The notes under the pieces are model-generated. The model was not told the DNA's origin. It did not search any database and saw only the letters and a list, made by a program, of their open reading frames with translations. A program made the position numbers and the translations under genes. From a virus, in IMG/VR virus record IMGVR_UViG_3300043410_001007, positions 1-64,000 of that record: a DNA stretch of 64,000 bases; one strand, written 5' to 3'. The stretch's first letter is position 1. Every line of letters begins with the position of its first letter. Of this stretch, positions 19,022 through 41,900 are shown one piece after another.

Positions 19022-20034
19022 AGTGTTCGGTAAATATCCAGTAGTAGTTTTTTATCGTATTGACCTTCGATTAAGGAATCGATTTGAGTTTGAATAATAG
19101 TATCAACGCTCTCAAACTCTAGATTAGTGTAGTCAGTAGCGTCACTCTCTAAGTCGGCCTTCATAGGAATAAGCGTCATTTCGCGGAGACCATACTGAGG
19201 CACTAGACTTTCACGAATGAATGCCGCCTCCTCGAACGAAATTTCAATATCAAGATTGACTTTAACATAACTGTCGGGCAAAAGCAAGGTTTCTGGATCT
19301 TCTAACACCTCGCTCAATTTATACACACGGAATCTAGGCTGACCTGGCCAAGCACGAAATTGGTGTGGTTTGTCCCATTCAAGGATCATCATACCACGCT
19401 CATCATCGCCAACATCCGAAAAGTTGTGTGGGAAAGCATTACCGATGTAGGTGATATTGCCCTTAGTCTGACGCTTATGAAAGTGTCCGCTATAAACATG
19501 GGTGAAGTTTCGTACATGGTTGTCTTTGAGTTCACCGTGATCGGGCATCTCGACCATAGCGTTCATATAGTAGCCTGGTAACTCAAAGTGTCCCATAAGA
19601 TATTTGCCACGCTTGTGCTCTAACTGCTTCCAATCATCACCGCATAGCCACGGAGCGATAACAACATCGCCCTCTTCAAACCAATCGTCAATGATTTTTA
19701 CATTTGGTAAGTGTTTAGCCCACTCAACACTATGAACATCACGCTTGTCTCTGTAATATAGGTCATGGTTGCCGGCAATAAAGAATACTTGTTCAAAAGA
19801 CGCATTCAACTTTTCTAATGCCCGCAATCCAAAGTTTAGAGTTTGAATATTGATAGCGGCACGATTGTGATTGTAATCACCCAAGAAGAAACAGGTCTCA
19901 CAACCCTCCTTCTTTGCTTCTTCGATGAACCAATCCACGAAGTTCATACAATCTTGATTGTGTTGTAGCGAGTTTGACTTCAAACCGAAATGAATATCGG
20001 TAAAGCAAGCTGCCTTTTTGAATAGTTGTTTCAT
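19018..20034 (-). CDS. gp47: Recombination nuclease subunit (Mre11/SbcD-like)
   Basis: TDIHFG, LGD, GNHD, GHFE and SGHFH metallophosphoesterase motifs. Confidence 0.95.
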   Translation of the reverse strand: MKQLFKKAACFTDIHFGLKSNSLQHNQDCMNFVDWFIEEAKKEGCETCFFLGDYNHNRAAINIQTLNFGLRALEKLNASFEQVFFIAGNHDLYYRDKRDVHSVEWAKHLPNVKIIDDWFEEGDVVIAPWLCGDDWKQLEHKRGKYLMGHFELPGYYMNAMVEMPDHGELKDNHVRNFTHVYSGHFHKRQTKGNITYIGNAFPHNFSDVGDDERGMMILEWDKPHQFRAWPGQPRFRVYKLSEVLEDPETLLLPDSYVKVNLDIEISFEEAAFIRESLVPQYGLREMTLIPMKADLESDATDYTNLEFESVDTIIQTQIDSLIEGQYDKKLLLDIYRTL

Positions 20035-20073
20035 TTATACCTAGTAAAAATATACGAAATAGTAGTATAACGC

Positions 20074-20100
20074 AAAAAGGTTGCCGAAAGCAACCTTTTT
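20074..20100. terminator. Terminator after the gp55-like gene, overlapping a possible sigma70 promoter (TTGCTT-18-TATACT, minus strand) for gp47
   Basis: AAAAAGGTTGC-cgaaa-GCAACCTTTTT perfect inverted repeat. Confidence 0.8.
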
Positions 20101-20122
20101 GGACAACACAGCACCAAACCAT

Positions 20123-21034
20123 CTATTCAGGTGCGTGTGCCTTGTATTCGTTAGCAAACTGGCGGGTGAAAGATGGAGCTAGGCCGTTCTGTTCCATGAT
20201 ATCATCACGAACACTTTGATTACGCTTTTCAGTGTTGAGAACACGACAGAATGAGTTATTGAGAACTGCTGTGAAGTATGCGAATGGATTATTAGACTTG
20301 GCTTCATTGAATCGCAAGCCAACATAGGTTAGTTGTAAGATAGCGGCACCGCGCATTTCATCGTTGTATGAATAACCACGCCAGTTCCACTTTGTGCCAT
20401 ATTTCTCACATAACTTTAGATACATACGAGCAAGAGTATTGGTAATCTGTCCCTTATCTCTGGCAAACTCACCCGTCTTAACATCACCCTCCCAGTGTGA
20501 CTTACCTACACAGATAAGGCTACCCATAGCATTTAGTTTAAAGTGTTGGAATGGTGGAAAGTTTACACGAATGTGAGCCATATCACCTAGTTCAGCGGCC
20601 GGTGGAAGAGCTTCGTCTAGGTCAGCGAATAAATCTTCACCGTCGTCGTCAAACTGAATAATGTCTTTAGCAGACTTCTTCTTGGCAACTTTTTTAGGTG
20701 CTCTTGGAGCAACAGGAATGTGATCCCAGGTCATCACTCGAAATACTAAATCAGTAACTGGAATAGATAGTGGATCAGTGGTACCCTTGGGTAATCCCGC
20801 CTCAATATCAAGACGCAATGCTCTTGCTTCTCTGGCCTGCTGGATAGTTTCTGGACGACTAGTATATTCTAAATTGACCTCTAGATTGCTATTATCCATG
20901 TAATCAACAATGAAGTCGTATTGATGGTCAGTGGGACTAGCGTAGGAGCAATAAGTATTTTTGCTCTTATGTATTTCAGCTAGAATGTCTTTGTTGTTTA
21001 GATAGTTTTTAGGTTTTGTTGTAGTAATAGTCAT
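20123..21034 (-). CDS. gp55: Late-transcription sigma factor, gp55-like, with a long insertion
   Basis: NYLNNKDILAEI and NWRGYSYNDEM...RFNEAKSNNPFAYFT...EKRNQ; adjacent to gp47 as in T4-like phages. Confidence 0.85.
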   Translation of the reverse strand: MTITTTKPKNYLNNKDILAEIHKSKNTYCSYASPTDHQYDFIVDYMDNSNLEVNLEYTSRPETIQQAREARALRLDIEAGLPKGTTDPLSIPVTDLVFRVMTWDHIPVAPRAPKKVAKKKSAKDIIQFDDDGEDLFADLDEALPPAAELGDMAHIRVNFPPFQHFKLNAMGSLICVGKSHWEGDVKTGEFARDKGQITNTLARMYLKLCEKYGTKWNWRGYSYNDEMRGAAILQLTYVGLRFNEAKSNNPFAYFTAVLNNSFCRVLNTEKRNQSVRDDIMEQNGLAPSFTRQFANEYKAHAPE

Positions 21035-21055
21035 AGAATAGTTATAGATTAGTAC

Positions 21056-21083
21056 ATTCTATCACAGTTTTGTGGCCTGTCAA
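21056..21083 (-). promoter_or_regulatory. Host sigma70-type promoter for the gp55-like gene
   Basis: TTGACA-16 nt-TAGAAT with extended TG. Confidence 0.7.
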
Positions 21084-21108
21084 GTACTTTTTATCTAAAA
21101 AGAGCACT

Positions 21109-21126
21109 TATTTATCTCGATAAATA
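21109..21126. promoter_or_regulatory. Back-to-back divergent late promoters
   Basis: TATTTATC-TC-GATAAATA inverted repeat. Confidence 0.7.
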
Positions 21127-21147
21127 CTAAAAAGGACAATCATATTC

Positions 21148-22386
21148 ATGGCAACTAACATCACATGGCAAGACCTCTACGGTCTCAACCCACAACTTCG
21201 TAGTGGCAACCCCGATCTAATCTATCCAGGTGAAGTGCTGACCATGCCCGACGGATCGTCCTACACCATCGTCAAGGGCGACACACTGAGTGGTATTGCG
21301 GCAAGATGGAACAACGAGCATGTAACTACGGTACAAGAGGCAGAAGATCCAGGGATCCAGCCTAACCACGGTCTACCATACGATGACGATGGTAATCTTA
21401 TGCCCGGCTGGACTCTAGACGAAGAGAATAACCCCGTATGGGTTGGTGGCGATTTTAGAGAGTCCGCAATCGTAGCACAAGATAAAAAAGATAAGCAAGA
21501 TGAGGCCGCTAATCCAGCGCCAGCGACACCGATCAACAAAGTAAATCCTCAATCAACCTTTGCTACACCACCAGACTGGCGATTTCGCATCACGCTTGCT
21601 CCTAACGCAAAATACTTCTACAATCTATCATCAGCAGAAGCGGGTATCTTAGCGCCACTGAAATCTACTAACGGTGTAATTTTCCCATACACCCCAACAG
21701 TGTCAGTCAATTACTCAGCTAACTATGATGCTACTACTCTAACACACAGTAACTTCAAAATCTACAACTATCAAAGTAGTGCTGTAGAAAGTATTTCTGT
21801 TACTGGTGAGTTCACAGCACAAGATGCGGCAGAAGCAAACTACATGCTAGCAGTTATTCATTTCTTTCGTAGCGCAACTAAAATGTTCTACGGTAAGGAC
21901 GCTAATCCCAGTCGCGGCGTGCCGCCACCACTACTCTTTATGAGTGGTTTTGGTCAGTATCAGTTCGATAATCACCCCGTAGCTCTACAATCATTTACAT
22001 ACACACTACCAACTGATGTAGATTACATCAACGCTTACCCTAATGCTCCTAGCGGCTCAGGCGTAAACGGCGCTCAACTTCGTTCGTTTGATCTTTTAGG
22101 TGGCTTGAAGGCTGGACCTATTAGAAGTTTCATCGAGGGCGCCGCTAATAGATTATTAGGCTCAGGACTAAAATCAGGCGGCGCACAAGTAGGACCACCT
22201 AACAATCGCCTGCCAACAGCATCAACTGAACTAACTCGTGTCCCTACTAAAATTTCGCTATCGCTGACATTTATCCCAATGGTCAATCGTTACGCAATCA
22301 GTAATGAGTTCAGTCTAAAAGATTACGCTAGTGGTAAACTATTACGCGGTAGTCAAAATCCTAAAGCAGGCGGAGGTATCTGGTAA
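21148..22386 (+). CDS. Baseplate/tail-tube initiator-like protein with N-terminal permuted LysM
   Basis: VIFPYTP, IHFFRSATKMFYG and PPPLLFMSGFG motifs; NPDLIYPG...YTIVKGDTLSGIA. Confidence 0.7.
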   Translation: MATNITWQDLYGLNPQLRSGNPDLIYPGEVLTMPDGSSYTIVKGDTLSGIAARWNNEHVTTVQEAEDPGIQPNHGLPYDDDGNLMPGWTLDEENNPVWVGGDFRESAIVAQDKKDKQDEAANPAPATPINKVNPQSTFATPPDWRFRITLAPNAKYFYNLSSAEAGILAPLKSTNGVIFPYTPTVSVNYSANYDATTLTHSNFKIYNYQSSAVESISVTGEFTAQDAAEANYMLAVIHFFRSATKMFYGKDANPSRGVPPPLLFMSGFGQYQFDNHPVALQSFTYTLPTDVDYINAYPNAPSGSGVNGAQLRSFDLLGGLKAGPIRSFIEGAANRLLGSGLKSGGAQVGPPNNRLPTASTELTRVPTKISLSLTFIPMVNRYAISNEFSLKDYASGKLLRGSQNPKAGGGIW

Positions 22387-22685
22387 TGAGTTATCCAAAA
22401 ACAAGTCCATATTATGAAACAACATCAGTCAACTCACAGTACTTAGATGTAATGAACCCGCGAGATATTCCGCCTGATACTAAAGATACATTCTGGGCAG
22501 TGACGCCAGTGTATGAAATGCGTCCTGATTTATTAGCCAGTGACTTGTATGGTGATAGTAGATTATGGTGGGTATTCGCAATGAGAAATCCAAACACTCT
22601 CAAAGATCCGCTGTTCGACTTCGTAACTGGTACTAAGATTTACATACCAAAGCAAGAAACAATAAGTAAAGCTCTAGGACTCTAA
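22386..22685 (+). CDS. gp53: Baseplate wedge protein, gp53-like
   Basis: RPDLLASDLYGDSRLWWVFAMRN...IYIP. Confidence 0.85.
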   Translation: MSYPKTSPYYETTSVNSQYLDVMNPRDIPPDTKDTFWAVTPVYEMRPDLLASDLYGDSRLWWVFAMRNPNTLKDPLFDFVTGTKIYIPKQETISKALGL

Positions 22686-22686
22686 G

Positions 22687-25245
22687 ATGACAACATGGCA
22701 CGACCTCTGGAATAAAAACAAGTCAACACTAAAGAGTGGCAATCCCGATCTAATCTACCCCGGTGAAGTTATTATTCTACCGGACGGATCATCTTACACG
22801 ATTGTATCGGGTGACACACTCAGTGGCATTGCCGCCCGTCAACCAACAGCCCCAAAGATTCCTGAAGTTGGTAATCAAAACAGCGAAAATCAAGCATCAG
22901 ATGATAGCGGCGCAGAAAAAGAAAAAACTGATGCCGAGAAGCCACCAGAAAAGTTAGATTACCGGGCCATGGCTAAGCCTAATCCTCTGTCTAAGTTCAC
23001 TAGTTACACATACGGTCTATCTCTCTACATGGTAACAGCAGAAGCACTAAACAACTTTACTAAAAAAGGCGGCACACTAACAGGTATCAAGGGCAAGAAC
23101 AGCGGTGTGTATGTAGTAGCACAGAGCGGTGGTATCAACAGCGATGTAGAAGACCGTGCTATCACTATTGATAGAAAACTAGGCGGCGGCTCACCTGGTT
23201 ATGACTACTACTTAGACGATTTCGAAGTATCATCTTATCTACCCGGCGGCAGTAATAAAGGCACTGCTAGTACGGAAGTAAAGTTCAAAATTACTGAACC
23301 GTATGGTTTCTCGTTTCTCCGAGACCTAAGTATTGCCGCTACTAATATCAACAAAGCAAGTGAATTTACTAAGAAACTAGATCCCTCTAAACAACCTAAC
23401 GCAATCTCTCAATACTTTATCATGGGTGTAAAGTTCTATGGTTACGATGTAAACGGTGATGTAGTTACCGGCGGTAACCCACTAGCGCAGGGTTACGATA
23501 ACGGTGACGATACAGATCCTAACGCAGTTATTCAACGCTTCTACCCACTAAAACTATCTAACATGAAATTCTCGTTAGACGGTAAAGCAGTGACCTATGC
23601 GTTCGACGGATACATATTTGCTGAGTTCGATGGATACAATGAACTCAATTCTACTATTCAAAGTGCTATGAAGATTAGCGGCGCTACTGTACAAGACGCT
23701 CTAACCGGCGAAGATGGCATAATCACTAAAATGAATGCTGCCAATAAAGGTCAACAAGACAGACAAAAGATTGGTATACCAAATGAACTTGAAATTGAGT
23801 TCTTAGATGAGAATGGCAAAGTAGTAACTGATAGTCCGATAGCTAAAGGTAGATTAGTAGATGATGAAACATTTGCGGCATCAACTGCTCCAATGACACC
23901 AGTAAAATCAAAAGATGAAGTAACTGTGGCAGATAGCTTTAGAGCAGTGTCTATCAATAAGGGAGTTCGTGCTATCAATATCTCAGCTGGCACGAACATT
24001 ATCTCTGTTATTGAGAACTTGATAATCAAGAGTAGTTACATAGGTGATGCTCTGGGCGCTACAAAATCACCAGAAGCCGGCGAGAACCGTGTAATCAAAA
24101 AAGAGCCTACTAAAAAACTAGTATGGTTCTCTATTGCGCCGGTTGTAGAAATAAAAGGTCGTGATGAAAAGACAAATCAATGGGCGTTCAAAATCAAACT
24201 ACAGATCCGTCCATTTGATGTTCCGTATCTAAAAACAACAGTCGGTAGTACAGTATCAAAATACCCAGGCCCACGCAAATTCTATGAATACTTATTGACG
24301 GGTGGAAACAGCGAGATCATATCGTATGTACAAGAATACAATAACATGCTGTTCATACCGCAATTACAATCAGGCAACACTGATGCGCCTGATAAAGAAA
24401 TCAAAGACGGTACACCGGTAGGCACACAAAACACAACAGGTAATAAAGGCTCAGTGGGCGCAGGCCCCAACCGCTCAAGTGAAATCAATGACTTAGTAGC
24501 GGCGCAACTTTACAGCCCTGCTGATAACGCACAAGCAAAAATCAAAATCATGGGTGACCCTGATTACCTAATGTCGTCACTAGCACTACCAACTATTACT
24601 GCTAACAAAGTTTATTCTCGGGATGGTAGTATCAACGGCTTGAACGGACAAGTATTCATTCAAATTACATTCAATACTGGCTTCGATTACAATGGCGAGA
24701 CCGGATTATTCAATGTAGATGATAGAGTTCAGTTCTATCAAAGTGATAAACCTAAGAGTCTTGGTATTGATGGTGTGGTCTACAGAGTAAATCAAATCAG
24801 TAGTTCATTCTCTAAGGGAAAGTTCGAGCAAACATTAGAGCTAATAATTGTTAGTGAGACTATGCTAGTGGGAGAAGAGACACCTACTAAAGGCGGCGAG
24901 CGTAGTGAGAGTAGTAGCGCTAGTGCTAACGGCGGTGGCAAACAGAGCGCGGCAGGCGGAACAAAATCTGTTCCACAATCAGTTAGAAGTCAAGCACATG
25001 ATAAACGAAGTGCTAATGCGCCCACTAACAAAACGCAAGTTACTAATACTGAGATGCGTGTCGAGCCTAACTCATCTAGTACACCGCCTGACCCTAATAA
25101 CGATCCTGGTATGCACGAGCCTACTGAACCAGATAGCAACTATAACAACACTGCTACTCAGCTACCTAACGGCAGAGTAACGGTGTTAGACGATACTAAC
25201 CCTGGCGGCGGCTACGACGGCTACGATAACACTTACGAGACATAA
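22687..25245 (+). CDS. Baseplate hub-like protein with N-terminal permuted LysM
   Basis: NPLSKFTSYTY, FKITEPYG, IKIMGDPDYL, GVVYRV...FSKGKFEQTL; lies between gp53 and gp5. Confidence 0.65.
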   Translation: MTTWHDLWNKNKSTLKSGNPDLIYPGEVIILPDGSSYTIVSGDTLSGIAARQPTAPKIPEVGNQNSENQASDDSGAEKEKTDAEKPPEKLDYRAMAKPNPLSKFTSYTYGLSLYMVTAEALNNFTKKGGTLTGIKGKNSGVYVVAQSGGINSDVEDRAITIDRKLGGGSPGYDYYLDDFEVSSYLPGGSNKGTASTEVKFKITEPYGFSFLRDLSIAATNINKASEFTKKLDPSKQPNAISQYFIMGVKFYGYDVNGDVVTGGNPLAQGYDNGDDTDPNAVIQRFYPLKLSNMKFSLDGKAVTYAFDGYIFAEFDGYNELNSTIQSAMKISGATVQDALTGEDGIITKMNAANKGQQDRQKIGIPNELEIEFLDENGKVVTDSPIAKGRLVDDETFAASTAPMTPVKSKDEVTVADSFRAVSINKGVRAINISAGTNIISVIENLIIKSSYIGDALGATKSPEAGENRVIKKEPTKKLVWFSIAPVVEIKGRDEKTNQWAFKIKLQIRPFDVPYLKTTVGSTVSKYPGPRKFYEYLLTGGNSEIISYVQEYNNMLFIPQLQSGNTDAPDKEIKDGTPVGTQNTTGNKGSVGAGPNRSSEINDLVAAQLYSPADNAQAKIKIMGDPDYLMSSLALPTITANKVYSRDGSINGLNGQVFIQITFNTGFDYNGETGLFNVDDRVQFYQSDKPKSLGIDGVVYRVNQISSSFSKGKFEQTLELIIVSETMLVGEETPTKGGERSESSSASANGGGKQSAAGGTKSVPQSVRSQAHDKRSANAPTNKTQVTNTEMRVEPNSSSTPPDPNNDPGMHEPTEPDSNYNNTATQLPNGRVTVLDDTNPGGGYDGYDNTYET

Positions 25246-25247
25246 AC

Positions 25248-28200
25248 ATGGCAAATAATAAGATACGAACATCAGGCACAGCTAGTAGCTACTCTGAAAG
25301 TGCTGGTAGTAAAGATAGTACCCCCGCACTCAAGGGACTGATGATCGGCACGGTCAAGAATAATATTGACCCTACACACTCAGGTAAGTTACAGGTCTAC
25401 ATAGCGGCCAGTGGCGGCGCTGATCCAGATGACCAAAATAGTTGGGTTGATGTGGAATACATGAGCCCTTTCCTAGGAACAACTTCACCTGGCGGCGATC
25501 CAAAGAATGGTCCAGACAAAACAGGTGATGGTAAGTTCGTGGGTAACCCACAGAGTTACGGATTCTGGGCATCTGCTCCAGACATTGGCACTGAAGTGCT
25601 ATGCTTATTCACTGACGATGATAAACATCGCGGCTTCTACATCGGTTGTATTCCTAAATCAGGGATGATGGCAATGGTTCCTGCCATTGGTAGTACCAGT
25701 AAAGTAGTACCTAATAGTGGCGAAGCTACAACCTACGGCGGCGCTGATAGACTACCAACTACAGAAGTCAACATGGGTAACCCTTCCGTAAAGAAAAGCG
25801 CAACGGTGTATGACGAGCCTAAACCTGTTCACTCATATCAAGCTGGTATTTTATCACAGCAGGGCTTGATTAGAGACAACATCAGAGGTGTAATCTCATC
25901 TAGTGCTCAGCGTGAATCACCAAGTAGAGTATTTGGTATCTCTACGCCAGGCTCAGCAATCTTTGAGGGTGGTTACGATGCGTCAACAATCGCGGCAGCC
26001 GCGGCCAAAGGCGATAAGAAAAAACTACAAGTTCAGGGCAGAACTGGCGGTCACTCATTTGTAATGGACGATGGCACACTAGAGGGTGCAGATCAACTAG
26101 TTCGTTTACGCAGTAGTGCTGGACATCAAATACTAATGAGTGATAGTGGACAAACTTTATTCATCATTCATAGCAATGGCTTATCATGGATCGAACTCGG
26201 CAAAGAAGGCACAGTTGATATCTACGCAACTAACTCATTCAATGTTCGAACTAAAGGCGATCTAAACCTACACGCAGATAACGATGTGAACATTCATGCT
26301 AATAAGAAACTAAACATGTATGGTCAATCAATCTCAATAGAAAGTGAAAAAGATTCGACATGGCGTAGCGGCGGCAACTTCTCTGGCTACACTGTAGGCA
26401 ACTACACATTCAAAATAGACGGTAGTATGGGCTTACAAAGTGCGGGTGAAGGCGGCATCAATAGCGCAGGTACCCTACACTTGAATGGCTCTAAAATCAA
26501 CATGAATAGTGGCACAAAAGGACCAGTTCCTGCCACAATCAATAAGATTACTAAAACTAGTCATATCGAAACTACATTCAGTAAAAATGTTGGTTGGATG
26601 AATCCAGCTCCAGAACCTAATATGAGTATTACTAGTAGAGCACCGACTCACCAACCATGGATAGGTTCAGGTAAAGGCGTCAATGTAAAAATCAATGATG
26701 TGGCACCGGACGCTAGCGCACCAACAGCAACACCGGCAACAACAGCGGCGAATAATGCGGCAAAACAAGCACCTACTGCGCCAACATCGGCAGCAGAAGT
26801 AGCAGCCGCTCCCGCCGCAAAATCAGCGGCAGGACCGCTACCAGCTACAGGCGTAAAAGCACTCACTGCGCAAGTAGCAACTACGGCTCAATCACTAACA
26901 ACAGAAGCACAAAAGGCAGCCGGCGTAGTAAGTGCCGCTAGTGGACTCACAGTCAATCAAATGGAGGCAGCCGGTGCTGTTCCGCCAGGCGCCGCCGCGC
27001 AAGTAACAGCACTTGTAGCTAAGGGCATGCCGGTAGAAAAAGCATTAGATGGTAAGCTAACGGGGGTCGGTGGAGTAACTGATGCGAAGGTACTAGTGGG
27101 CGATGTTGTAAAACAAGCCGGTGTACTACAAGACGCAATCGTAAACAGCGCTACAAAACTAAAAGAGGCCGGAGTTCTAACAGGCAAAGAAAGTGCACTA
27201 CAAGCGGCAGGACCGATATTAGCTGGTGTAACACACGGTGTAAAAGATGTAGCAGATGCTCTAAAGGGCACTGCGGGTAGCGTCGGTGCTTTGATTGATG
27301 GTGCCGCAACAAGCGTCGGTAGTTCTCTTGGTAGTCTAAAAGACAGTTTGGCTAGTGGTAAGCTGGCGGCCGGTTTGGGTGAAAGTGTAAGCAGTGGTCT
27401 TGGCGGACTAAAGGCAAGTCTAGAAGGTCTGGGCGATAAACTCAAATCAGAAGCAGACAGCATGAAGTCAGGATTACAGAACGCATTCGCAAGTGTAGAA
27501 AAATCATTCACTGCTCTAAAAGGCGGCACAGTCAATACTCTTGGTAACGGTGACGGCAGTACTCCTCCACCTAAGGGTAAAACTGAACTTGCCGCTAACG
27601 ATTATGATAGTGCTAAAGCAGAATACGAAAGCGCAGAGACTGAATGGTTCAATGCTAAGCGTGATTACTCATACTCTAAGAGTGATGAAGATTATGAAAG
27701 AATAGCGGCCGCTGAAAAGAAAATGTCTTCAGCAAAACAAACAATGGCCAAAGCTAGTATGGCATTCTTGGGCAGTATGCCGGGTGGCAGTGCCGTGGCT
27801 GATGCGGCCGGTAGCATCAAGGACAAGTTAGGCGGCATCACTGATTCATTAAGTGCTAAAGCTGGCGGACTTCTAGACTCACTAAAGTCATCTACTGCTA
27901 CGAGTGGACTAAACGCACTGCCTGGTGGAGCTGGTGCTCTAATGGCATCAGTAAGCAATAGTGGCGCTGGCGGCACTAGTCCGCTTGATGCTATGAAGAG
28001 TGTGTCTGCTGGTGCTAATAGTCTAATAGCTAAGGTAGCACCATATTCAGGCGCTCTAGGATTATCTTCATCGGTTGCTCAACTACAATCAGCGGCTGGT
28101 AAGTTTACTGCTCTAACAGCAAAAGCAGACAGCTTATCTAATAAAATAACATCAGCGTCTGCTAAAATAGATAGTTTATCTGGTAAAGCTAGTGAACTAT

Positions 28201-28757
28201 CAGCATCACTGAATGACCCTACTAAGCTAGGTGGCAAACTAACAGAGGTAGGAGATAAACTCAAAGGAGCTATGGAAGGTGGTATGTCCAAACTAAATGG
28301 CGCGGCTGACTTGGCGAAGTCTGGCGCTAGTGGTATCATGGCCCAACTACAAACACAGCTAGATGCTATTGGCGGCGCGGGAGCTGAGGTAAAGAGTGCC
28401 GTAGCCGCTACAGGAACATTCGATACTACTGCGCTCAAAGCTAAGATGGGTAAACTACTTGGTGACGCTAAGATTCCTATGCCGTCGTTCAATGATAGCG
28501 TCAAACCATCATCGGATGTAGTAGCAGTAACAGAAGCACAAACAGCCGCACTAGAAGCAGTCAAAGATGCTCAATACAAGGTCAATGCGGCTAAGCTAAA
28601 CGCATCACTGACTAAGACTACAGCCTCATTTATGCCAGCCGCCCAGAAAGAAAAAATGTTAGCTGATGTACAAGAGAAGGTACAGGCCGCGCTAGATAAG
28701 TTAGATGAAGCTGAGAAAGCATATCAAGCTACTCTAAATGGCGGCACTACAGCGTAA
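25248..28757 (+). CDS. gp5: Baseplate central spike gp5/VgrG-like protein with long Ala/Gly/Ser/Lys-rich C-terminal extension
   Basis: OB fold (VKNNIDP..SGKLQVYI, PDIGTEVLCLF), GHSFVMDDG, RSSAGHQILM, beta-helix repeats. Confidence 0.8.
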   Translation: MANNKIRTSGTASSYSESAGSKDSTPALKGLMIGTVKNNIDPTHSGKLQVYIAASGGADPDDQNSWVDVEYMSPFLGTTSPGGDPKNGPDKTGDGKFVGNPQSYGFWASAPDIGTEVLCLFTDDDKHRGFYIGCIPKSGMMAMVPAIGSTSKVVPNSGEATTYGGADRLPTTEVNMGNPSVKKSATVYDEPKPVHSYQAGILSQQGLIRDNIRGVISSSAQRESPSRVFGISTPGSAIFEGGYDASTIAAAAAKGDKKKLQVQGRTGGHSFVMDDGTLEGADQLVRLRSSAGHQILMSDSGQTLFIIHSNGLSWIELGKEGTVDIYATNSFNVRTKGDLNLHADNDVNIHANKKLNMYGQSISIESEKDSTWRSGGNFSGYTVGNYTFKIDGSMGLQSAGEGGINSAGTLHLNGSKINMNSGTKGPVPATINKITKTSHIETTFSKNVGWMNPAPEPNMSITSRAPTHQPWIGSGKGVNVKINDVAPDASAPTATPATTAANNAAKQAPTAPTSAAEVAAAPAAKSAAGPLPATGVKALTAQVATTAQSLTTEAQKAAGVVSAASGLTVNQMEAAGAVPPGAAAQVTALVAKGMPVEKALDGKLTGVGGVTDAKVLVGDVVKQAGVLQDAIVNSATKLKEAGVLTGKESALQAAGPILAGVTHGVKDVADALKGTAGSVGALIDGAATSVGSSLGSLKDSLASGKLAAGLGESVSSGLGGLKASLEGLGDKLKSEADSMKSGLQNAFASVEKSFTALKGGTVNTLGNGDGSTPPPKGKTELAANDYDSAKAEYESAETEWFNAKRDYSYSKSDEDYERIAAAEKKMSSAKQTMAKASMAFLGSMPGGSAVADAAGSIKDKLGGITDSLSAKAGGLLDSLKSSTATSGLNALPGGAGALMASVSNSGAGGTSPLDAMKSVSAGANSLIAKVAPYSGALGLSSSVAQLQSAAGKFTALTAKADSLSNKITSASAKIDSLSGKASELSASLNDPTKLGGKLTEVGDKLKGAMEGGMSKLNGAADLAKSGASGIMAQLQTQLDAIGGAGAEVKSAVAATGTFDTTALKAKMGKLLGDAKIPMPSFNDSVKPSSDVVAVTEAQTAALEAVKDAQYKVNAAKLNASLTKTTASFMPAAQKEKMLADVQEKVQAALDKLDEAEKAYQATLNGGTTA

Positions 28758-32985: not shown

Positions 32986-35900
32986 ATGGCCAAACAAGTA
33001 AGAACACTTACATTTTTACCGGAAATCTTCCAAACTGAAACGAACAGTCACTTCCTAGAGTCTACTCTGGACGTACTGACGAACAAACCTAATCTCTCTC
33101 GTGTCCAGGGCTATGTGGGCGAGAAGCACGGTTACGGCGTCACTGCCAGCGACAAGTATGTGGCTGAGCCTACAGCAGAACGTACAAACTATCAGTTAGA
33201 ACCTAGTGTAGTGTTCCTAAAGAAAGACACCAAAGTCGCACAAGACTTTATTGACTACCCAGGTATCATCAATGCGCTAGAAAAACAGGGCGCTAATGTA
33301 TCTAATCACAACAAGTTGTTCTCAAACGAGTTTTACACATGGGACAGCTTTACTGACCTAGATAAGACAGTCAACTACACAATGTACTACTGGTTGCCAC
33401 TGGGCCCAGATGCTATTCTCATCACAGAAGCACTAGACATAGACACTATCATCGGTCAACAACAGTACACAACGCCTAGTGGTCTAAAGTTCATCAACGG
33501 TCTAAAAGTAAACTTTGTAAATCCAGTACAGACTGGTATGTCAAAGATAGATTACTATGTCGAGGGTGTTGGCACCTCTATTACCCTACTTCCTGCTGAC
33601 GAGATGATTAGTACAGAAGTCACTGCTGGCGGCATGTATGTTCCATATGACAAAGACAACTTCGATACTACTGTATGGAGTATCAAACTGTATGTTCCTA
33701 TTCAACCAGATTACATTACTATCAATAGAAATAGTGAGGATCGTAACGCATGGTCTCGTGGCAATCGCTGGTTTCATCAGCGTGTTCTAGACACTACTGA
33801 GGAGTGGAACGGCCAGATCACACGTAACCCTAGTAACACAATCACTCGTGCTCAGCGTCCTATCATTGAGTTCGAGGGCAATATTCGCCTGTTCAACAGC
33901 GGCACAAAGAGCGCCGGCGCAGTTGATTACATCGACACATACACAACAAACGCACAAGTATCAGTAAGTGGTGCAGCTAAAGGTACCGCTGAAATCGTAG
34001 TTACGCTAACTGATACTACTACTATTACTAACGGTTACTTCACTGTTGCTAGTACAGATAAACTAACACTAGATCAAGCTATTGTATTCAAAGCAACACC
34101 TGGCGTTGGATCAACTTACGTAGATAACTACGGTAAAACAATCGCATACGAAACATTAGGTGGCGTAAAACTATCTACAAAAACATACTACATCTCTAAA
34201 ATCGATAGAGATAACAACGGCATTCAGCTAACAGACATTACTGGTAATACATACCCTAAAGCGGTCACCCACGTCAAAGAAGTCATCCCTTCGATGACAC
34301 TAACAAACGTAGCAACTGTACAGAGTGGCGCCCGTGTTGTGTTTGCGGCAGATGATAACCCAGCAGTACGTTCAAAAATCTACAACATCAGTTACACTAG
34401 TACATCTGGTGATTCGGTCGCTGTTATGGCAGACACTGGTGCCACAGTCACTGATGGCACACAAGTTCACGTTAGTGACGGACCTGGTGATCTAAACGGC
34501 ACTTCATGGCGCTACAGTAGCACTACTGGTGGCTGGATCGAATCACAAAAGAAAGTAGCAATCAATCAAGCGCCTCGCTTCGATATCTTTGATACTAATG
34601 AGATCAGCTTGGGCGACAGTGACTTCTATCCTGCTACAACATTCAAGGGCACAAAAATCTTTAGTTACGCTCCTGGTGTAGGTACTAGTGATAGCGTACT
34701 AGGCTTCCCTGTTGCGTACAGTAGTGGCGAGACCGGTGCCGACTTCGAATTCCGTGTTGATTTCAACTACGATACATTTACATACACTAAGAGTGGTACA
34801 AAAACTACTGCTCTAGTAAGTATTGGATACGTACACACCGGCACAACAAACGTAAAGAAGCGAATTGGTTGGACTAAAGCAATCGCTCCTAGTAAACAGT
34901 ATCAACTATTTTCATTTGATACTACAACTGCCAATCAAACAGATGGTTACGTGTGTGACATCTTAGCTAACACACGCCAAGAAGTAACATGGTCGCCAGC
35001 AGTTGTATTCAATGACGGTGAGTTCGTTGACCCAACAAAATTCACAGTGGTGCGTGATGCTGTGAAAAATACTACAACAATCAAACTATCATCTACTGCT
35101 GATATTGGTTCTAAAGTGACCGTATCTTTACTAAGTGATCAAGTAAGCTCTACTGCGTACTACCAAATCCCTGCTAACCTACAGAACAACGCATTCAACG
35201 TAAACATGACTGCTATTGCTCTAGGTGAAGTCAAACAACATTACGTTGGCGTATTCAATAACGCGCCAGGCTCAAGTGGCCCGCAATTAGGTAGTAACAA
35301 CTACAGCGACTTAGGCGATCTAACAAAGTACGGTAATCGTATTATTCAAAACAGTGCTAGTCTCTTGTTACCTGGTGTATTCTTGCGTAAAGCAGAATAC
35401 AACTTACACGATGCTCTACGCTTCAATGCTGAGAAATATCAAGAATACAAGAACCGTCTAGTAGACCTAGCAGAAGCTAGTGACTACTCAGTGTATCAAA
35501 CACCTGAGCAAATCTTAGACGACATTATCAGTCGAATAACTGCTAACAAACTACAAACAGACAGCTTCTTCTGGAGCGACATGGTCATGAGTGGTAGCCC
35601 GTATGTAACTAACACATACGAATATCGCACAGATATTTTTGCTGGTGTCATTCCTCTATCACACACTTATGATACTAAAAACGCAAACTATGAAGGTTTC
35701 TGTGTTTATTATCAGTCAACAGTTGATGGTAGATTAGTAAACGAGCTATTGATTCGCGGTATCGATTACAACATCACTGATGGTGAACCAAGTATTGTTA
35801 TGACTAGAACTATTCTAGCCGGCGACAAACTAGTTGTAAAAGAATACAACCAAACATACGGCAGTTACTGCCCTAATACACCTACTAAGCTGGGTATGTA

Positions 35901-38900
35901 TCCAGCAACTACACCAAAGATTGTTACTGACTACACATTCATAGAGCCAACTCAATTCATTGTTGGTCATGATGGTAGCATGACTAAGATGTATGGTCAG
36001 ATAGTCAATGGTCGTATGAATGACTTCCGTGACGTAGTGTTATTCGAATTCGAAAAGCGTGTATTCAACAACTTGAAAGTAAGTGGCGAACTACCACTCA
36101 CACAGGACGACCTCATGCCTGGTCAGTGGCGCACTACTAAGTTTACATGGGAAGACATATTAGGTACTTACAGTGAGAACTTCTTAGATTGGGCGGGTAA
36201 GAACCGTGTAAACTACCGCCGTCAGTTCTACAACAAACTAGACAATCGCACATTCAATTACAATAAGGCAACTAACCGCATCGATGGTACACTATTGAAG
36301 CAGGGTGGCTGGCGCGGCATTTATCGTTGGTTCTACGACACTACTAATCCTTCACAAGCACCGTGGGAAATGTTGGGTATTACCGATAAACCCCTATGGT
36401 GGGATGAACGTTATGGTCTAGCGCCATACACTAGTGGTAATACACTAATGTGGGAAGAAATCTCTCGCGGTATTGTATGGAATCACGGCAACCCATTCGT
36501 AGTCAGTACAAAAATCAGACCAGATTTACTAAAGGTATTACCTGTTGATAGTGAAGGCAAGCAACTATTCCCGCAAGATACAGTTGTTGGTAACTATGAT
36601 ATCAATACGTTCAAGCGTGATTGGTTCGCAGGTGACGGTTCGCCAGCAGAAGAAGCATACCGTCGTAGTAGTACATGGGCATTCGACTTGATGAAGCTAC
36701 TATCTACATTCGAGCCAGTACGCTTCTACAACTACTTTGCCGACCGCGACAATTACAAATACAACAGTGATAACAGTCAGTTCTTATTCAAAGAACGCTA
36801 TCACCTAAGCCCATCTTTACTAGATATTTACGGTACAGATGGTACAACTGCTAAACATTCATACATGAACTGGGTTGTTGATTACAATAATCAATCAGGT
36901 AAAGATGGCGCGGCAGCCCTACATCAAACATTACAGAACTTAGATGTTCGTCTAACATATCGCTTAGCCGGCTTCAGTGATAAAGAATACCTAAAGTTCT
37001 TTACTGAGAACTCAACACCTAGTGCTACTAGTGCTAACTTATTGATTCCTGACGATAGCTTTGACCTTATTCTTTATGATAACGTAGCTGATGTTCGCAT
37101 TGAATACAGTTCAGTAATCATTCAAAAGAACTCACTAGGTTACACAGTGTGGGGCAACTCAATGAATGCGCCACACTTCAAAACAGTTACTCCGTTACCT
37201 GGTCCAACTCAAACAATCTCAGTAGATGCGTCTAGTGTAGAAGTAACTACTGAATTTGATAGCACACGTACTGTTGCTGTAGCATACGGCACTCAGTACT
37301 ACACTGAAACTGGCGTAAGTGAGTTCCTAATGAACTACGGACGCTACTTAGAAACTACCGGTGTAACATTCGAGCAAGTAAAGAGCGGCAAGAAGTTAGA
37401 CTGGAAATACAGCATCGAGCAGTTCTTGTACTGGGCTCAACAAAGTTGGGAAGACGGTAGTACCATCAACCTAAACCCAGCGGCTACAAAATTCACTGCT
37501 TACAAAGAAGGCTTAGTTGTTCAACCACTAACCCTACGTCAAAGTAACTTTGTTCTAAATCAAAACTTGTTACCAGTAGATGCGGCCGATCTAGCAGTAT
37601 CTCGTTACAATCAATCATTCGGCGTAACTGTATTGAGTGAGGGTGATACTATCGCCTACACTAATCTAAACATGAGTGCCGTTGAACACGCCATTATCTT
37701 CAATAATGAAACCTTATTCGGTGACGTTATCTACAATAACGAAACAGGCAACAGACAGTCACGTGTTATTCTACAAGGCAGAATAACAGCAAACTGGACC
37801 GGCGGTGTAACTGCTGAGGGCTTTATTCTAAACGAAGGTGACATCGAAGAGTGGAACACCAACTCTAAGTATCCTAAGGGACAAATTGTTACCTACAAAA
37901 ACTTGTACTGGGTAGCACAGTCACTAATCGAAGCAAGCAATGAATTCGACTACACCCTATGGAAACAAAGTTCATACGATCAAATCAAAGTAGGATTGTT
38001 ACCTAACCCAACTACGTTAGCATACGATAGTGTAACACTCTACGACATCAACATGGCTAATTTAGACAGTGAAGCTGACTTACTAGCATTCGGTCTAATC
38101 GGCTATCGTCCACGCACATACATGAGTGAAACACAACTAAGTGATATCACACAAGTAAACATCTATCGTGGCATGATCCCAATGAAGGGAACTAACAAAG
38201 TTGCTGACGCACTAATCGGCGCAACGACTGCGCAGGGAACACTTGACTACTCTATTAGAGAAAACTGGGCTATCAAGCGAGGTGAGTTTGGTAGCGTACT
38301 AAACACTAACTACGCAGAAGTGTTGTTAGACGGCGGTCTACTAACTGCTAACCCATCAATCATTGGATTCAGTGACGGTACAGTAGCTGTTGATGGCGCA
38401 CATCAAACTATTACTGTAAACCCATACAACCTAAAGGGCACAACAAACTACGTCAACGATCTAATCAACTACGGTCGTGCTCCTAAAGATAACGAATTCC
38501 TACCACTATCAGGTGTAACTACTAGTCAACAACGTGGTTTACCAACTGCTGGTTACGTAAACATCGATGACGTAAAGTATGTTGCTTACACACTTGATGA
38601 TCTAAACTTGAATTCTGACGCAATCGATAACTTGTATCGTGATGATGTAGTATGGATAGCAAATCATCGCGGCGAGTGGGATGTATTTACTCCAGTAAGT
38701 CAGGAAATAAACTTACTAACAGTAACTAACAACTTCGATGGCACTGCTACTCTCAAATTTAGCAAGCCACATACCTTAGTTGAGTATGACGCATTCTATG
38801 TTATCGAGTTTGATAGTACTATCAACGGCTACTACATGGTCGACAGTATTCCAGCGGCCGATCAAGTAACAGTTAGTAAATCACTAGCTAAATCAATCAT

Positions 38901-41900
38901 TACTCTAACAGGTACCGGTGTTGTATTCAAACTAGTAAGTAAGCGTGTTACTCACAGTAGTGAACTATCAAGTTACAAAGAAATTGTAAAATACGGTCAA
39001 TATTCAACTCATCGCAATTGGGTTGATACTAGTACAAGTGGTGAATGGCAAGTGCTTGCTAACGGCCCAGTGTACTTGGAATCTAATTTAGATGATAAGT
39101 CTACTGGTATCACTAACTATGGTCTGACAGTAGCTTACTCAAGTAAGATCGGTCAGTTAGTAGCAGACGGTGCTGGCAACCTGTACCTAAATAATGTACT
39201 ACTCGCTAATAGAAAAGCTGGTATTGGCGCAGACACAAAACTAATTGTTGACGGTTATCATGCTTACTGTAGTAGCCCAACAGAGGGTCTTATCTACGTC
39301 TATGACTTCTCTGGTAGTACGCTATCTGCCAAATCAATTGTTGCTGGTAACAAGTACACAATCAGTACACTAGGTACTACCAACTATGTTGCTCTAGGCG
39401 CAACACCACGTTGGACTAATGTACAAGCATACTTCACACCTGAACAAACTGCTACCGCTCCACTAATGATTGTTACTAATGCTAACGGTCATACAATCGA
39501 GGCTGGTACATACTTGAGTGGTAATAACATCACTCCTGGTACGTACATTACCGTACAGACGCACCGCCTAATCACAACTACTCCTACATCAATCGAAGTG
39601 AGTGGTAAAGGCAAGCAAAATCAACAGAGTGTTGGTTTGACTAACGTAACTGGTATTCGTGTTGGTGACTGGGTCGTAAACGATGACCTACCACTAGGCA
39701 CCTACGTACAGAGTATCAACACATACGATAAAGTTATTGTTGTTACCTCTCGTTTCACAAAGAATGTAGCGGTCGGTACACCATTCACATTCTATCGTCC
39801 AATCAGTGCTAATGTCGAAACTAGCACATTCATAGAGCCGCTACACGCTCGTGGTATCTATCGTGTAAGTGAAGCTACACCGGTAGCAGGACTGACTAAC
39901 GTAAACGGCGATCAAACATCAATTCAGGTTGTTGGTCAGCCAGCAGAGAAGACATCATTCTTAGCTACTGTTTCTGGCGGCACAAACACCGGTACAGGTA
40001 CAGTTACACAAGAGTACACTACAATCGATACTAAAGTGGATCTCACTGACCCACGTTTACAAGATGATCTCAGCGCAGTCACGCTATTCGACGGCTTCCT
40101 ACCTAACGACTTTGCTATTAGTCAAGACAATCAGTGGTTGTACGTAAGTAATAAAAATACTAACGAAGTAAAAGTATTCATCAATGAAGTGGGCAAGTTC
40201 AAGCCAGTAAGCAAATACAAAGCAGAGAATTCATTCACTAACGGCGCAATCACCGCGGGATGGGGCACTACTATCGACACCCCTCGTGATGGTAGTAAAC
40301 TAATTGTCGGCGCACCAGAAGAAACAGTAGACGGTTCAGATAACGCAGGCGCAACATACATCTATGCTCGACTAACTGAGAACTTCTTACAAAGCGACCG
40401 CGCCCTAAAAATTGTACCATATCAAACATACTCAATCGAAGATATGGGTGATGTAGACGCTACTAGTCTAGAGGGCTGGTTCGATCTAGGTGCCGGTGTA
40501 CAGTTCAGAGCACGTATTACTAAAGACGATGGCTACATTGATAACACAGCTTGGAAATCAGGCACTATCATGACTGTCGGTGATGCTACATATGGCATCA
40601 AAGATACAACTGGTGCTAGTAGCATCATACGCATCGGTTCATACTTGAGTGGTTACGATCCCGCACATAGCGTTGGCGATACACAAGATCGTATCGTTGC
40701 TGGTACTACCGTTGTTGGCCAGTTCGACTCATATGAAACAGATACACTAACAGCGTTCTGCGACGGAGCTAATGGTTCAAGTGAAATAACATTCGCTGCC
40801 AGAAGCACACCGGCCGCGGTCAGTGTAGGGCAAATAGTTTGCGTAACAACACGTAATAGTACAACACCATTCGCAATCAACCATGTTAGTAAGGCTGACT
40901 ATGAAGATAGTACTAAGAACAGTGAAGTTTCTAAAATTCAACCAGATACATATGTTGCTTACATCAAAAACAACGTAGACTATCACACAGTGTCACTATT
41001 CGATGGTACTAGTCACTCTACAGGAAGTCTAACAAAAGGCAGTGACGGTAAGATTTACAAGGCTAAGAATACCACCACTATGGACCCTGTTACTGATACT
41101 ACGTTTGTAAACTGGTCACAAGTAAAAGTTACTGTTGGTTTGACAAGAAAACTAACAGGTCAACTAGCATCAGCAAACAATGAAGTATCATTCCGTGCGG
41201 CTGGTCGTACTGGTCGCTACATAGTCAGTGAGGCGCATAACTTTAGTGGTGCTCAGGTGAATCACATAGCAGGTTCAGTAGTCACTGCTATCTCTAAAGA
41301 CGTACCGTTTGTTGCTCGTGGCTATGGCTCAATCGTAAAACGCATTAACGGTGTACTATCATCAGTAGACAAAACAGGAACAGTATCACTACGCAAAGAC
41401 TTTATCATCAATGATGTAGTTCCTAACAATAAAGTTATTGTCTACATCGATAACAAGCTAGTACCACTGTACACAATCGGTTATCGTAACGGTCGTAATT
41501 ATCGCAGTTACAACTACAAGATAACAGTCAATACCCTACTCAATCAAACTAAAGTTAGTTTTACTAAAACACCACCTATCGGTAGTGTAGTTGTTATTGA
41601 CTTTGGTAAACTAATCTTACAGCAACGAACTCAAAGTGCGGCGCCACGTGTTGGCGCACAATACGGTCACAGCGTTGCTACTAACAATTGGGGCGCAGAA
41701 GTATTCACAGGCGCACCATATGAAATCTCAGACATCAACAGCAAACATAACATCGAGGGTGCTGTCTATCGCTGGACTAACGTAGGTCAACGATACAACA
41801 ATATTGTTGGTGATCTAAAGAATTTAGTACCAAACAACGCTGGTACATACGATGTTGATGCTAACATTTACATCGACGGCTTCTTAGTGAACATCAAGTT

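What the first reader, a model, noticed from the sequence alone, without database searches (positions are those of the whole stretch)
21148..22840. Circularly permuted LysM module duplicated on two baseplate proteins
Seen: both 21148..22386 and 22687..25245 begin TWxDLxxxNxxxLxSGNPDLIYPGEVxxxPDGSSYTIVxGDTLSGIAAR, with clear DNA similarity (~21201-21303 vs ~22734-22836). Known: canonical LysM order is YTVxxGDTLxxIA followed by LxxxN..NPxxIxPGxxLxxP. Here the halves are reversed, joined by a DGS turn, and no further half follows. Inference: a true circular permutant, or halves that complete by domain swapping between subunits. It may have been copied between two genes flanking the LysM-like gp53 and may give the baseplate peptidoglycan/GlcNAc binding.
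Basis: partly seen in the sequence, partly recalled or inferred. Interest (0 to 1): 0.75.

Follow-up and report, generated by a model that had tools for sequence, protein, structure and literature searches.

The report
Circularly permuted LysM on baseplate proteins
Two baseplate proteins of an uncultured giant T4-like phage each start with a small cell-wall-binding (LysM) domain whose two halves are in swapped order, and the same swapped domain turns up in about 70 other phage tail and cell-wall-cutting proteins, although I found no paper that describes it.

Summary
ORF A (21148-22386, baseplate tube-initiator, gp48/Afp7 class) and ORF C (22687-25245, virion structural protein at the hub position) share a roughly 50-residue N-terminal module (37/49 identical, E 2e-19).

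Pfam LysM matches each module above its cut-off, but in two pieces in reversed order: profile 16-43, then four residues, then profile 1-16. The profile is covered once, with nothing missing and nothing extra.

This is not a one-off remnant.
- Divergent orthologues carry the same order, on A only, on C only, or on both.
- A DNA pattern for the junction found 82 ORFs in viral contigs. All are orphan permuted modules with no canonical LysM in the protein. At least 10 of the 73 distinct proteins also carry a peptidoglycan hydrolase domain.
- The same pattern in bacterial and archaeal genomes found only 10 hits, all ordinary tandem LysM pairs.

AlphaFold gives helix, beta-hairpin, helix (pLDDT 80). 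An independent viral model superposes at TM 0.74.

The two window copies are old (dS about 1.2) and under purifying selection (dN/dS 0.19).

Caveat: the engineered equivalent of this permutant was reported unfoldable. Autonomous folding and peptidoglycan binding are therefore inferred, not shown.

The parts
21148..22386 (+). ORF A, 412 aa: permuted LysM module, then a linker, then a baseplate tube-initiator core (gp48/gp54/Afp7/Pvc7 class)
   Evidence: ORF list. The AlphaFold model of the whole protein hits Pvc7 9qgl_7A, A-1(L) 8kea_P, Cis7 7b5h_AK, Afp7 6rao_G and T4 5iv5_BE (Foldseek E 3e-4 to 5e-3, prob 0.99-1.0, TM by target 0.36-0.47). Its core is homologous to the gene annotated 'baseplate tail-tube protein; gp48' in Rak2-like phage fEgEco12, in the same gene order.
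21154..21249 (+). ORF A module, first half (residues 3-34): LysM helix 2, the long loop and strand 2
   Evidence: Pfam PF01476 profile positions 16-43, 17.1 bits. My own canonical-LysM HMM places it at positions 16-45, 36.6 bits. The model has helix 7-13 and strand 30-32.
21250..21261 (+). Four-residue join D35-G36-S37-S38 between strand 2 and strand 1 (predicted beta-turn)
   Evidence: It is the gap between the two Pfam pieces. It is 4 residues long in every non-pattern-selected lineage tested. In ordinary tandem LysM arrays the linker median is 15 residues and only 3.3% of 424 are 4 or shorter.
21262..21309 (+). ORF A module, second half (residues 39-54): LysM strand 1, the GDTL loop and helix 1
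   Evidence: Pfam PF01476 profile positions 1-16, 21.5 bits. The model has strand 38-40 and helix 47-58.
21310..21567 (+). ORF A linker (residues 55-140), which contains a conserved beta-hairpin motif (about 21367-21447)
   Evidence: pLDDT is below 50 for residues 57-70 and 125-134. A hairpin at 88-98 and a helix at 106-121 are confidently predicted. This region is hypervariable in orthologues.
22386..22685 (+). ORF B, 99 aa: gp53-like baseplate protein with a LysM-like domain in canonical order (the structural 'glue' LysM of contractile baseplates)
   Evidence: PF11246 Phage_gp53, 24.9 bits against a cut-off of 21; phrog_7145 baseplate wedge subunit, 4.3e-27. The role of this domain in T4 gp53, Pvc7 and A-1(L) gp16 is described in PMC10966104 and 10.1101/2025.04.20.649488.
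22687..25245 (+). ORF C, 852 aa: permuted LysM module, then an acidic linker, then a virion structural protein core (phrog_11190) at the position between gp53 and gp5. Probably hub-associated; its exact role is not established.
   Evidence: ORF list. phrog_11190 matches 30 of 36 family members. Synteny with the 751-aa 'virion structural protein' of fEgEco12. No solved relative by sequence or by profile. One structural-neighbour cluster in the ESM Atlas carries Phage_lysozyme (a lead only).
22690..22848 (+). ORF C permuted LysM module (residues 2-54): 22690-22782 is helix 2 plus strand 2, 22783-22794 is the DGSS turn, 22795-22848 is strand 1 plus helix 1
   Evidence: Pfam pieces at profile 18-43 (12.8 bits) and 1-18 (20.9 bits). 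The doubled module gives a full 1-45 hit at 53 bits.

Best explanation
Each of the two proteins starts with a complete LysM domain in circularly permuted order: helix 2, strand 2, a 4-residue turn, strand 1, helix 1. The chain is cut in the helix 1-helix 2 turn, and the old termini are joined into a beta-hairpin. The module belongs to a widespread, mainly phage-borne type of permuted LysM. It is a self-contained unit of about 48-50 residues, tethered by a flexible linker. It keeps both loops that form the GlcNAc-binding groove of LysM: strand 1-helix 1 (GDTL..IA) and helix 2-strand 2 (N..NP.LIYPG). Most likely (inferred) it binds peptidoglycan glycan strands. The tube-initiator ring and the hub-position protein move with the tube tip, so several tethered copies would reach the cell wall after sheath contraction. 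There they could hold the tip in the peptidoglycan or position wall-cutting activity. The module is an optional accessory that has moved between the N-termini of these two proteins during evolution. It is distinct from the structural LysM-like 'glue' protein gp53 encoded between them. Shown here: the sequence permutation, its conservation, its distribution and its domain partners. Inferred: autonomous folding, ligand, stoichiometry and the step of infection at which it acts.
For: Permutation. The curated Pfam LysM model hits both modules above its cut-off, in two pieces in reversed order that cover the profile once. An HMM built from 138 canonical domains gives the same split. It gives a full-length 1-45 hit of 50-61 bits only when the module is doubled in silico, for six of the seven modules tested (window A and C, P0122, P0069, P0084, P0138). 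The seventh, P0052, gives a full-length hit at 30 bits.

Conservation. The same order occurs in orthologues whose modules are only 36-65% identical to the window's (P0069, P0084, P0052 on ORF A; P0122, P0123, P0138, L091 and L093 on ORF C).

Selection. Between the two window copies dN/dS is 0.19 with dS 1.19. Over strand 2, the turn, strand 1 and helix 1 it is 0.06.

Census. A junction pattern found 82 ORFs (73 distinct proteins, 65 unique modules) in viral contigs. Every one is an orphan permuted module with no canonical LysM in the protein, and the flanks are P/A/G/K-rich low complexity. As a control, the same pattern in 596 Gb of bacterial and archaeal genomes gave 10 hits, all canonical tandem pairs.

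The turn. It is 4 residues in all lineages found without the pattern. In canonical arrays the linker median is 15 residues and 3.3% are 4 or shorter.

Fold. The AlphaFold model of the module has pLDDT 80.2 and pTM 0.63, with helix 7-13, strands 30-32 and 38-40, and helix 47-58. The same elements appear in the full-length model. An independent BFVD model, A0A6J7WS77 ('LysM domain-containing protein', uncultured Caudovirales phage), superposes at TM 0.74 and rmsd 2.1 A over 53 columns. No solved structure aligns sequentially, as expected for a permutant.

Function. Ten of the 73 proteins also carry Peptidase_M23, Phage_lysozyme, SLT, Hydrolase_2 or VanY. Others are gp5-like hub, tape-measure and internal-virion-lysozyme families. 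[quoted passage not shown]

Accessory nature. Most ORF A and ORF C orthologues lack the module: only 1 of 86 related loci has it. The Rak2-like gp48 homologue has no N-terminal extension at all.
Against: Nickson et al. 2008 (PMC2441773) built exactly this helix 2-strand 2-strand 1-helix 1 permutant of the E. coli MltD LysM, also with a 4-residue linker. It was insoluble and judged unfolded, and inserts of only two residues in the inter-helix turn were not tolerated either. Autonomous folding of the natural module therefore cannot be taken for granted.

I could not run a permutation-aware superposition on a solved LysM. That the two helices pack as in LysM therefore rests on AlphaFold confidence alone, from a 10-sequence alignment; in the full-length model the module has pLDDT of only 40-73.

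No binding data exist. Where the N-termini of these proteins lie in the assembled baseplate is unknown, and the role of ORF C is not established. The census pattern itself demands a 4-residue join, so it cannot show that longer joins do not occur.
Confidence: 0.62

Rival explanations
1. The permuted segment does not fold alone. Its halves are completed between subunits: helix 2 of one chain packs on the hairpin and helix 1 of a neighbour. This would happen within the tube-initiator hexamer, within the hub oligomer, or between ORF A and ORF C, so that LysM-like folds double as assembly clamps.
For: The engineered permutant with the same connectivity was insoluble (PMC2441773). Both carriers are expected to be oligomeric baseplate components. 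In this phage two different proteins carry the module.
Against: The module occurs on only one of the two proteins in L010 (A only) and in L093 (C only). It also occurs on proteins not expected to form rings, such as a 263-aa M23 peptidase. The 4-residue D/N/G-G turn favours an intrachain hairpin. The AlphaFold monomer model is compact, with pLDDT 80.
Confidence: 0.15
2. The module is folded but serves as a protein-protein adaptor inside the baseplate, like the LysM-like domain of T4 gp53, Pvc7, Afp7 or A-1(L) gp16. It does not bind glycan.
For: LysM-like domains are established structural glue in contractile baseplates (PMC10966104 and 10.1101/2025.04.20.649488). ORF A is of the same class as Pvc7 and Afp7, which carry such a domain.
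Against: The phage already encodes the gp53-like glue protein, ORF B. The module is absent from most orthologues, so it cannot be an essential joint. It scores above the Pfam LysM cut-off and keeps the groove-loop motifs, and the same module is fused to peptidoglycan hydrolases. It is separated from the core by linkers of about 40-85 residues that are largely predicted disordered.
Confidence: 0.15
3. The segment is a non-functional remnant: the end of one LysM and the start of the next, left over from a truncated tandem array.
For: The module aligns in one stretch across the junctions of ordinary tandem LysM arrays in endolysins. Duplication followed by truncation is the classical route to a permutant.
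Against: There is strong purifying selection on both copies despite saturated synonymous sites. Exactly one full profile's worth of sequence is present. The same unit recurs in 65 unique modules with low-complexity flanks and never with a neighbouring canonical domain. The turn length is constant.
Confidence: 0.03

Closest known systems
Canonical LysM domain (Pfam PF01476, CBM50), for example the modules of E. faecalis AtlA (PMC4083421) and E. coli MltD
   Same: All profile positions are present. Scores exceed the Pfam cut-off. The GDTL..IA and N..NP.LIYPG motifs of the two groove-forming loops are kept. It has the same partner domains (M23, lysozyme, SLT, amidase-type hydrolases). The nearest canonical relative seen is the W-type LysM of P0305.
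   Different: The order of elements is helix 2, strand 2, strand 1, helix 1 instead of strand 1, helix 1, helix 2, strand 2. The strands are joined by a fixed 4-residue turn and the inter-helix turn is open. With the junction pattern it was found only in viral contigs, never in bacterial genomes.
Engineered alpha2-beta2-beta1-alpha1 circular permutant of the MltD LysM domain (Nickson, Stoll and Clarke 2008, PMC2441773)
   Same: It has identical connectivity, the cut is in the same inter-helix turn, and the linker joining the old termini is also four residues long.
   Different: The engineered protein was insoluble and judged unfolded. The natural module is conserved under purifying selection in many phage proteins and is predicted to be compact. 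Its folding has not been tested.
LysM-like 'glue' domain of contractile baseplates: T4 gp53, pyocin R2 glue, Pvc7, Afp7, A-1(L) gp16
   Same: It is a LysM-related element on or next to the tube initiator in the inner baseplate. ORF A has the tube-initiator fold of Pvc7 and Afp7, and ORF B is gp53-like.
   Different: Those domains are divergent, in canonical order, essential and buried in protein-protein contacts. The module here is optional, N-terminal, linker-tethered, permuted and close in sequence to sugar-binding LysM.
Virion-associated peptidoglycan hydrolases and hub proteins that carry cell-wall-binding modules (T4 gp5 lysozyme domain; Mu Gp44-type hub clusters with LysM in 66% of members)
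   Same: A wall-directed module is placed on a tail-tip or hub protein.
   Different: No catalytic domain was detected on ORF A or C, or on the gp5-like ORF D. The module is a binding domain only, and it is permuted.

Membership tests
LysM domain (Pfam PF01476 / CBM50) | Sequence match to the curated profile above its gathering score | tested here: met
   31.9 bits (ORF A) and 25.6 bits (ORF C) against a cut-off of 20.9. 72 of 73 permuted-module proteins from viral contigs also match at E <= 0.001.
LysM domain (Pfam PF01476 / CBM50) | Complete domain: every profile position present once | tested here: met
   The pieces are profile 16-43 plus 1-16 (ORF A) and 18-43 plus 1-18 (ORF C). The doubled module gives a single 1-45 hit of 58 and 53 bits.
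LysM domain (Pfam PF01476 / CBM50) | Canonical connectivity strand 1, helix 1, helix 2, strand 2 | tested here: not met
   The order is helix 2, strand 2, strand 1, helix 1 in the sequence and in the model. It is therefore filed as a permuted variant, not an ordinary member.
LysM domain (Pfam PF01476 / CBM50) | Two helices packed on one face of a two-stranded antiparallel sheet (3D fold) | tested here: inconclusive
   The model has the right elements at pLDDT 80.2 and pTM 0.63 and agrees with an independent viral model at TM 0.74. No permutation-aware superposition on a solved LysM could be run. Sequential searches gave Z <= 3.2.
LysM domain (Pfam PF01476 / CBM50) | [quoted passage not shown] | tested here: met
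   GDTLSGIA and NP(D/N)LIYPG(E/Q) are invariant or nearly so in the alignment. The groove is defined in PMC4083421. This is sequence conservation only.
LysM domain (Pfam PF01476 / CBM50) | Binding to peptidoglycan or chitin oligomers | not testable with these tools
   This needs pull-down, ITC or NMR with the purified module. The only indirect support is fusion to peptidoglycan hydrolase domains in 10 of 73 proteins.
Baseplate tube initiator (T4 gp48/gp54, Afp7, Pvc7, Cis7) | Tube-protein fold of the core | tested here: met
   Foldseek hits to 9qgl_7A, 8kea_P, 7b5h_AK, 6rao_G and 5iv5_BE, at E 3e-4 to 5e-3, prob 0.99-1.0, TM by target 0.36-0.47. The core has pLDDT around 90.
Baseplate tube initiator (T4 gp48/gp54, Afp7, Pvc7, Cis7) | Position in the baseplate gene block | tested here: met
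   The gene order is the same as in Rak2-like phage fEgEco12: gp46, gp47, sigma factor | gp48-like, small wedge protein, virion structural protein, gp5-like, gp25, gp6.
T4 gp53-like baseplate protein (PF11246), for ORF B | Profile match above the cut-off | tested here: met
   24.9 bits against 21; phrog_7145 at 4.3e-27.
gp27-type baseplate hub, for ORF C | Sequence or fold similarity to a solved hub protein | tested here: inconclusive
   No PDB match by sequence or by a 36-member profile. No Pfam hub family. The assignment rests on gene position and the phrog_11190 label 'virion structural protein'.

The most novel reading that the evidence does not exclude
Permuted LysM is a distinct, essentially phage-specific domain class that evolved because the permutation itself is useful. 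It changes the folding nucleus from the helix-turn-helix of canonical LysM to a beta-hairpin. Proteins that sit in, or are expelled through, the tail (tube initiator, hub, tape measure, internal virion lysozymes) could then refold and grip peptidoglycan quickly in the periplasm. It would also be the natural solution to a permutant that protein engineers reported as impossible to fold.
Probability: 0.15. Interest if true: 0.8.

Novelty: new variant of a known kind. Interest (0 to 1): 0.62.

Why it matters
LysM is one of the most studied carbohydrate-binding modules, and its connectivity has been treated as fixed. A natural, conserved, widely used permutant would matter in four ways.

1. It would give folding research a natural counterpart to an engineered permutant that failed (PMC2441773).
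2. It would correct annotation: current profiles hit it as two half-domains and call the proteins 'LysM repeat protein'.
3. It points to a set of tail-tip, hub, tape-measure and virion-lysin proteins that probably grip the cell wall during genome delivery.
4. It offers a compact wall-binding tag with different chain ends for lysin engineering.

For this phage, it suggests that the tube tip carries several tethered peptidoglycan-binding modules. The gp5-like protein shows no recognisable lysozyme domain.

Tried and rejected
I therefore could not read the contigs of P0069, P0084, P0138, P0122 or P0123. That P0005 and P0122 lie on one contig is inferred only from their equal contig length.
- Foldseek against PDB, VIA-align against 48,161 representatives, and VIA-align on Foldseek's list gave no meaningful match for the module: best E 0.96, Z 3.2 and Z 2.5. 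I read this as expected for a permutant, not as evidence of a new fold.
- Sequence and profile searches of the PDB for the ORF A core and for ORF C found nothing useful.
- Megablast of 20000-26000 and tblastn of the ORF C core against cultured phages found nothing. tblastn of the module found only endolysins with ordinary tandem LysM; I checked this for Arthrobacter phage Tuck.
- The representative search with the module was swamped by multi-LysM proteins, so it could not be used as a census.
- P0273, with two permuted units in tandem, was first taken as proof of the folding unit. It can also be read as one canonical LysM with a Pro-rich insert between the helices plus two orphan halves, so I count it as ambiguous.
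I corrected it.
- Literature searches for 'permuted LysM', 'LysM + circular permutation' and 'LysM + circularly permuted' found no report of a natural permutant. Subscription-only papers were not searched.
- ESM Atlas look-ups gave only leads.

Full report
**What is in the window.** The region is the start of the baseplate operon of an uncultured T4-related giant phage. The record is 103,929 bases and CheckV rates it 29% complete. Earlier notes of this scan call it a freshwater jumbo phage.

On the minus strand lie gp46-, gp47- and gp55-like genes. On the plus strand follow:
- ORF A, 21148-22386, 412 aa;
- ORF B, 22386-22685, 99 aa;
- ORF C, 22687-25245, 852 aa;
- a gp5-like hub protein, 25248-28757;
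- gp25, gp6 and a 6540-aa ORF.

The same order is annotated in the Rak2-like phage fEgEco12: a gp48-like 'baseplate tail-tube protein', a small wedge protein, a 751-aa virion structural protein, a gp5-like protein, gp25 and gp6. There the gp48-like protein is only 243 aa and has no N-terminal extension.

**Check of the observation.** ORF A residues 6-53 and ORF C residues 3-51 are 37/49 identical (E 2e-19). Nothing else in the two proteins is similar. At the codon level the module is 102/144 nt identical, and the 60 nt on either side are unrelated.

The curated Pfam LysM model matches both proteins above its cut-off (31.9 and 25.6 bits against 20.9). It does so in two pieces in reversed order:
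- ORF A: 21154-21249 is profile 16-43 and 21262-21309 is profile 1-16.
- ORF C: 22690-22782 is profile 18-43 and 22795-22848 is profile 1-18.

There is no other LysM piece in either protein or elsewhere in the record. There is also no room for one upstream of either start codon. ORF B is gp53-like (PF11246 above its cut-off).

**Is it a complete permutant?** I built an HMM from 138 canonical LysM domains harvested from the tandem-LysM proteins returned. Native modules hit it as positions 16-45 followed by 1-17. When a module is doubled in silico, a single full-length 1-45 hit appears across the junction. It scores 58 bits for ORF A, 53 for ORF C and 50-61 for four orthologues, and 30 for a fifth, P0052. 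The module therefore holds exactly one LysM's worth of sequence. It is cut in the turn between the two helices and rejoined strand 2 to strand 1 by four residues (DGSS). The nearest canonical relative seen (P0305) has almost the same two halves in the normal order.

**Conservation and history.** Both protein families have hypervariable N-terminal extensions, and most members lack the module. Only 1 of 86 related loci has it. Where it occurs it is always permuted:
- on ORF A orthologues P0001, P0069, P0084 and P0052 (the last is the L010 gene);
- on ORF C orthologues P0121, P0122, P0123, P0138, L091 and L093.

In L010 only the ORF A orthologue has it. In L093 only the ORF C orthologue has it. 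In this phage and a 95-98% identical relative both have it.

The window's ORF A module is 84-88% identical to the ORF C modules of sister phages. It is only 76% identical to its own ORF C module, which has diverged mainly in helix 2. Between the two window copies dS is about 1.2 and dN/dS is 0.19. Over strand 2, the turn, strand 1 and helix 1 dN/dS is 0.06; over the 13 codons of helix 2 it is about 1.2. The module was therefore exchanged between the two genes, but long ago, and both copies are maintained by selection.

**A wider family.** A DNA pattern for the junction (G-[QE]-x-h-x-h-P-[DNGS]-G-x-x-Y-x-V-x-x-G-D-x-L) hit 96 stretches in the viral contig collection. The 82 ORFs I could read comprise 73 distinct proteins and 65 unique modules. 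Every one has one 'profile 18-45' piece, four residues, then one 'profile 1-17' piece. None has a full canonical LysM anywhere in the protein. The flanks are the N-terminus or P/A/G/K-rich low-complexity sequence on both sides. The module lies at N-terminal, internal and C-terminal positions.

The same pattern in 596 Gb of bacterial and archaeal genomes gave only 10 hits. All are ordinary tandem pairs of full domains, which also shows that my classifier recognises canonical arrays when they are present. In canonical arrays the strand 2-to-strand 1 linker has a median of 15 residues, and only 3.3% of 424 are 4 or shorter.

Among the 73 phage proteins, Pfam finds LysM in 72. Partner domains are Peptidase_M23 (3), Phage_lysozyme (3), SLT (2), Hydrolase_2 (1) and VanY (1). 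PHROGs adds the ORF C family, gp5-like hub, tape-measure and internal-virion-lysozyme families.

**Structure.** AlphaFold2 on a 10-sequence alignment gives pLDDT 80.2 and pTM 0.63, with helix 7-13, strands 30-32 and 38-40, and helix 47-58. The same elements appear in the full-length model, at lower confidence. The best match among predicted viral structures is a 'LysM domain-containing protein' of an uncultured phage, at TM 0.74 and rmsd 2.1 A over 53 columns. This is an independent model with the same connectivity. No solved structure aligns sequentially, which is what a permutant should give. I could not run a permutation-aware superposition.

The full-length ORF A model identifies the core as a baseplate tube initiator of the Pvc7, Afp7, Cis7 and T4 gp48/54 class. 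The role of ORF C could not be established beyond 'virion structural protein at the hub position'.

[quoted passage not shown] Both loops lie intact within the two halves, and their motifs are the best conserved positions of the family.

The tube initiator and hub travel with the tube tip. I therefore propose that several linker-tethered modules bind peptidoglycan once the tip has crossed the outer membrane. This is inference.

The structural LysM-like 'glue' role known for gp53, Pvc7 and A-1(L) gp16 is already filled here by ORF B. The module is also optional among orthologues, which argues against an essential assembly role.

**Main caveat.** Nickson et al. made exactly this permutant of the MltD LysM, with a four-residue linker, and found it insoluble. 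They concluded that it cannot be made (PMC2441773). Either the natural family has compensating features, or it folds only in context. Completion between subunits is therefore kept as a rival, although single-module proteins such as the M23 peptidase of L092 argue against it.

**Novelty.** The scan has noted other permuted cell-wall domains in phage tail proteins. Databases label these proteins simply 'LysM'. I rate this as a new variant of a known kind, of moderate to high interest.

Noticed in passing
window 21367-21447 (ORF A residues about 74-100): A conserved motif, G.PYDDDGNLMPGW.LDEENNPVWVG, is predicted as a confident beta-hairpin (pLDDT 81-91). It is present once here and repeated up to four times in the N-terminal extensions of ORF A orthologues (for example P0002, P0017, P0033). 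It has no Pfam match and its function is unknown.
   Followed up: partly
ORF A and ORF C orthologues (P0002-P0240), N-terminal 50-300 residues: Both baseplate families have hypervariable N-terminal extensions: coiled coils, acidic or proline-rich stretches, and MucBP domains in 4 of 37 ORF A orthologues. The conserved cores appear to serve as platforms for exchangeable accessory modules.
   Followed up: partly
window 25248-28757 (ORF D) compared with L010:5339-8544 and L008:4618-8057: The 1169-aa gp5-like protein of the window corresponds to two adjacent ORFs in relatives, with the split near residue 480-500. No lysozyme domain is detectable in it. Its C-terminal 700 residues are Ala/Gly/Ser-rich.
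   Followed up: no
window 32986-52608: A single 6540-aa ORF lies at the gp7 position of the baseplate block.
   Followed up: no
L092:2403-3191 (minus strand): A 263-aa phage protein combines an N-terminal permuted LysM with a C-terminal M23 peptidase (PF01551, 1.8e-22). It is a compact candidate for testing the folding and wall binding of the permuted module.
   Followed up: partly
P0273 residues 70-187: Two permuted LysM units lie in tandem, separated by a 16-residue Pro/Thr-rich linker between helix 1 and the next helix 2. Pfam instead reads the middle as one canonical LysM with a long insert. The source organism is unknown.
   Followed up: partly
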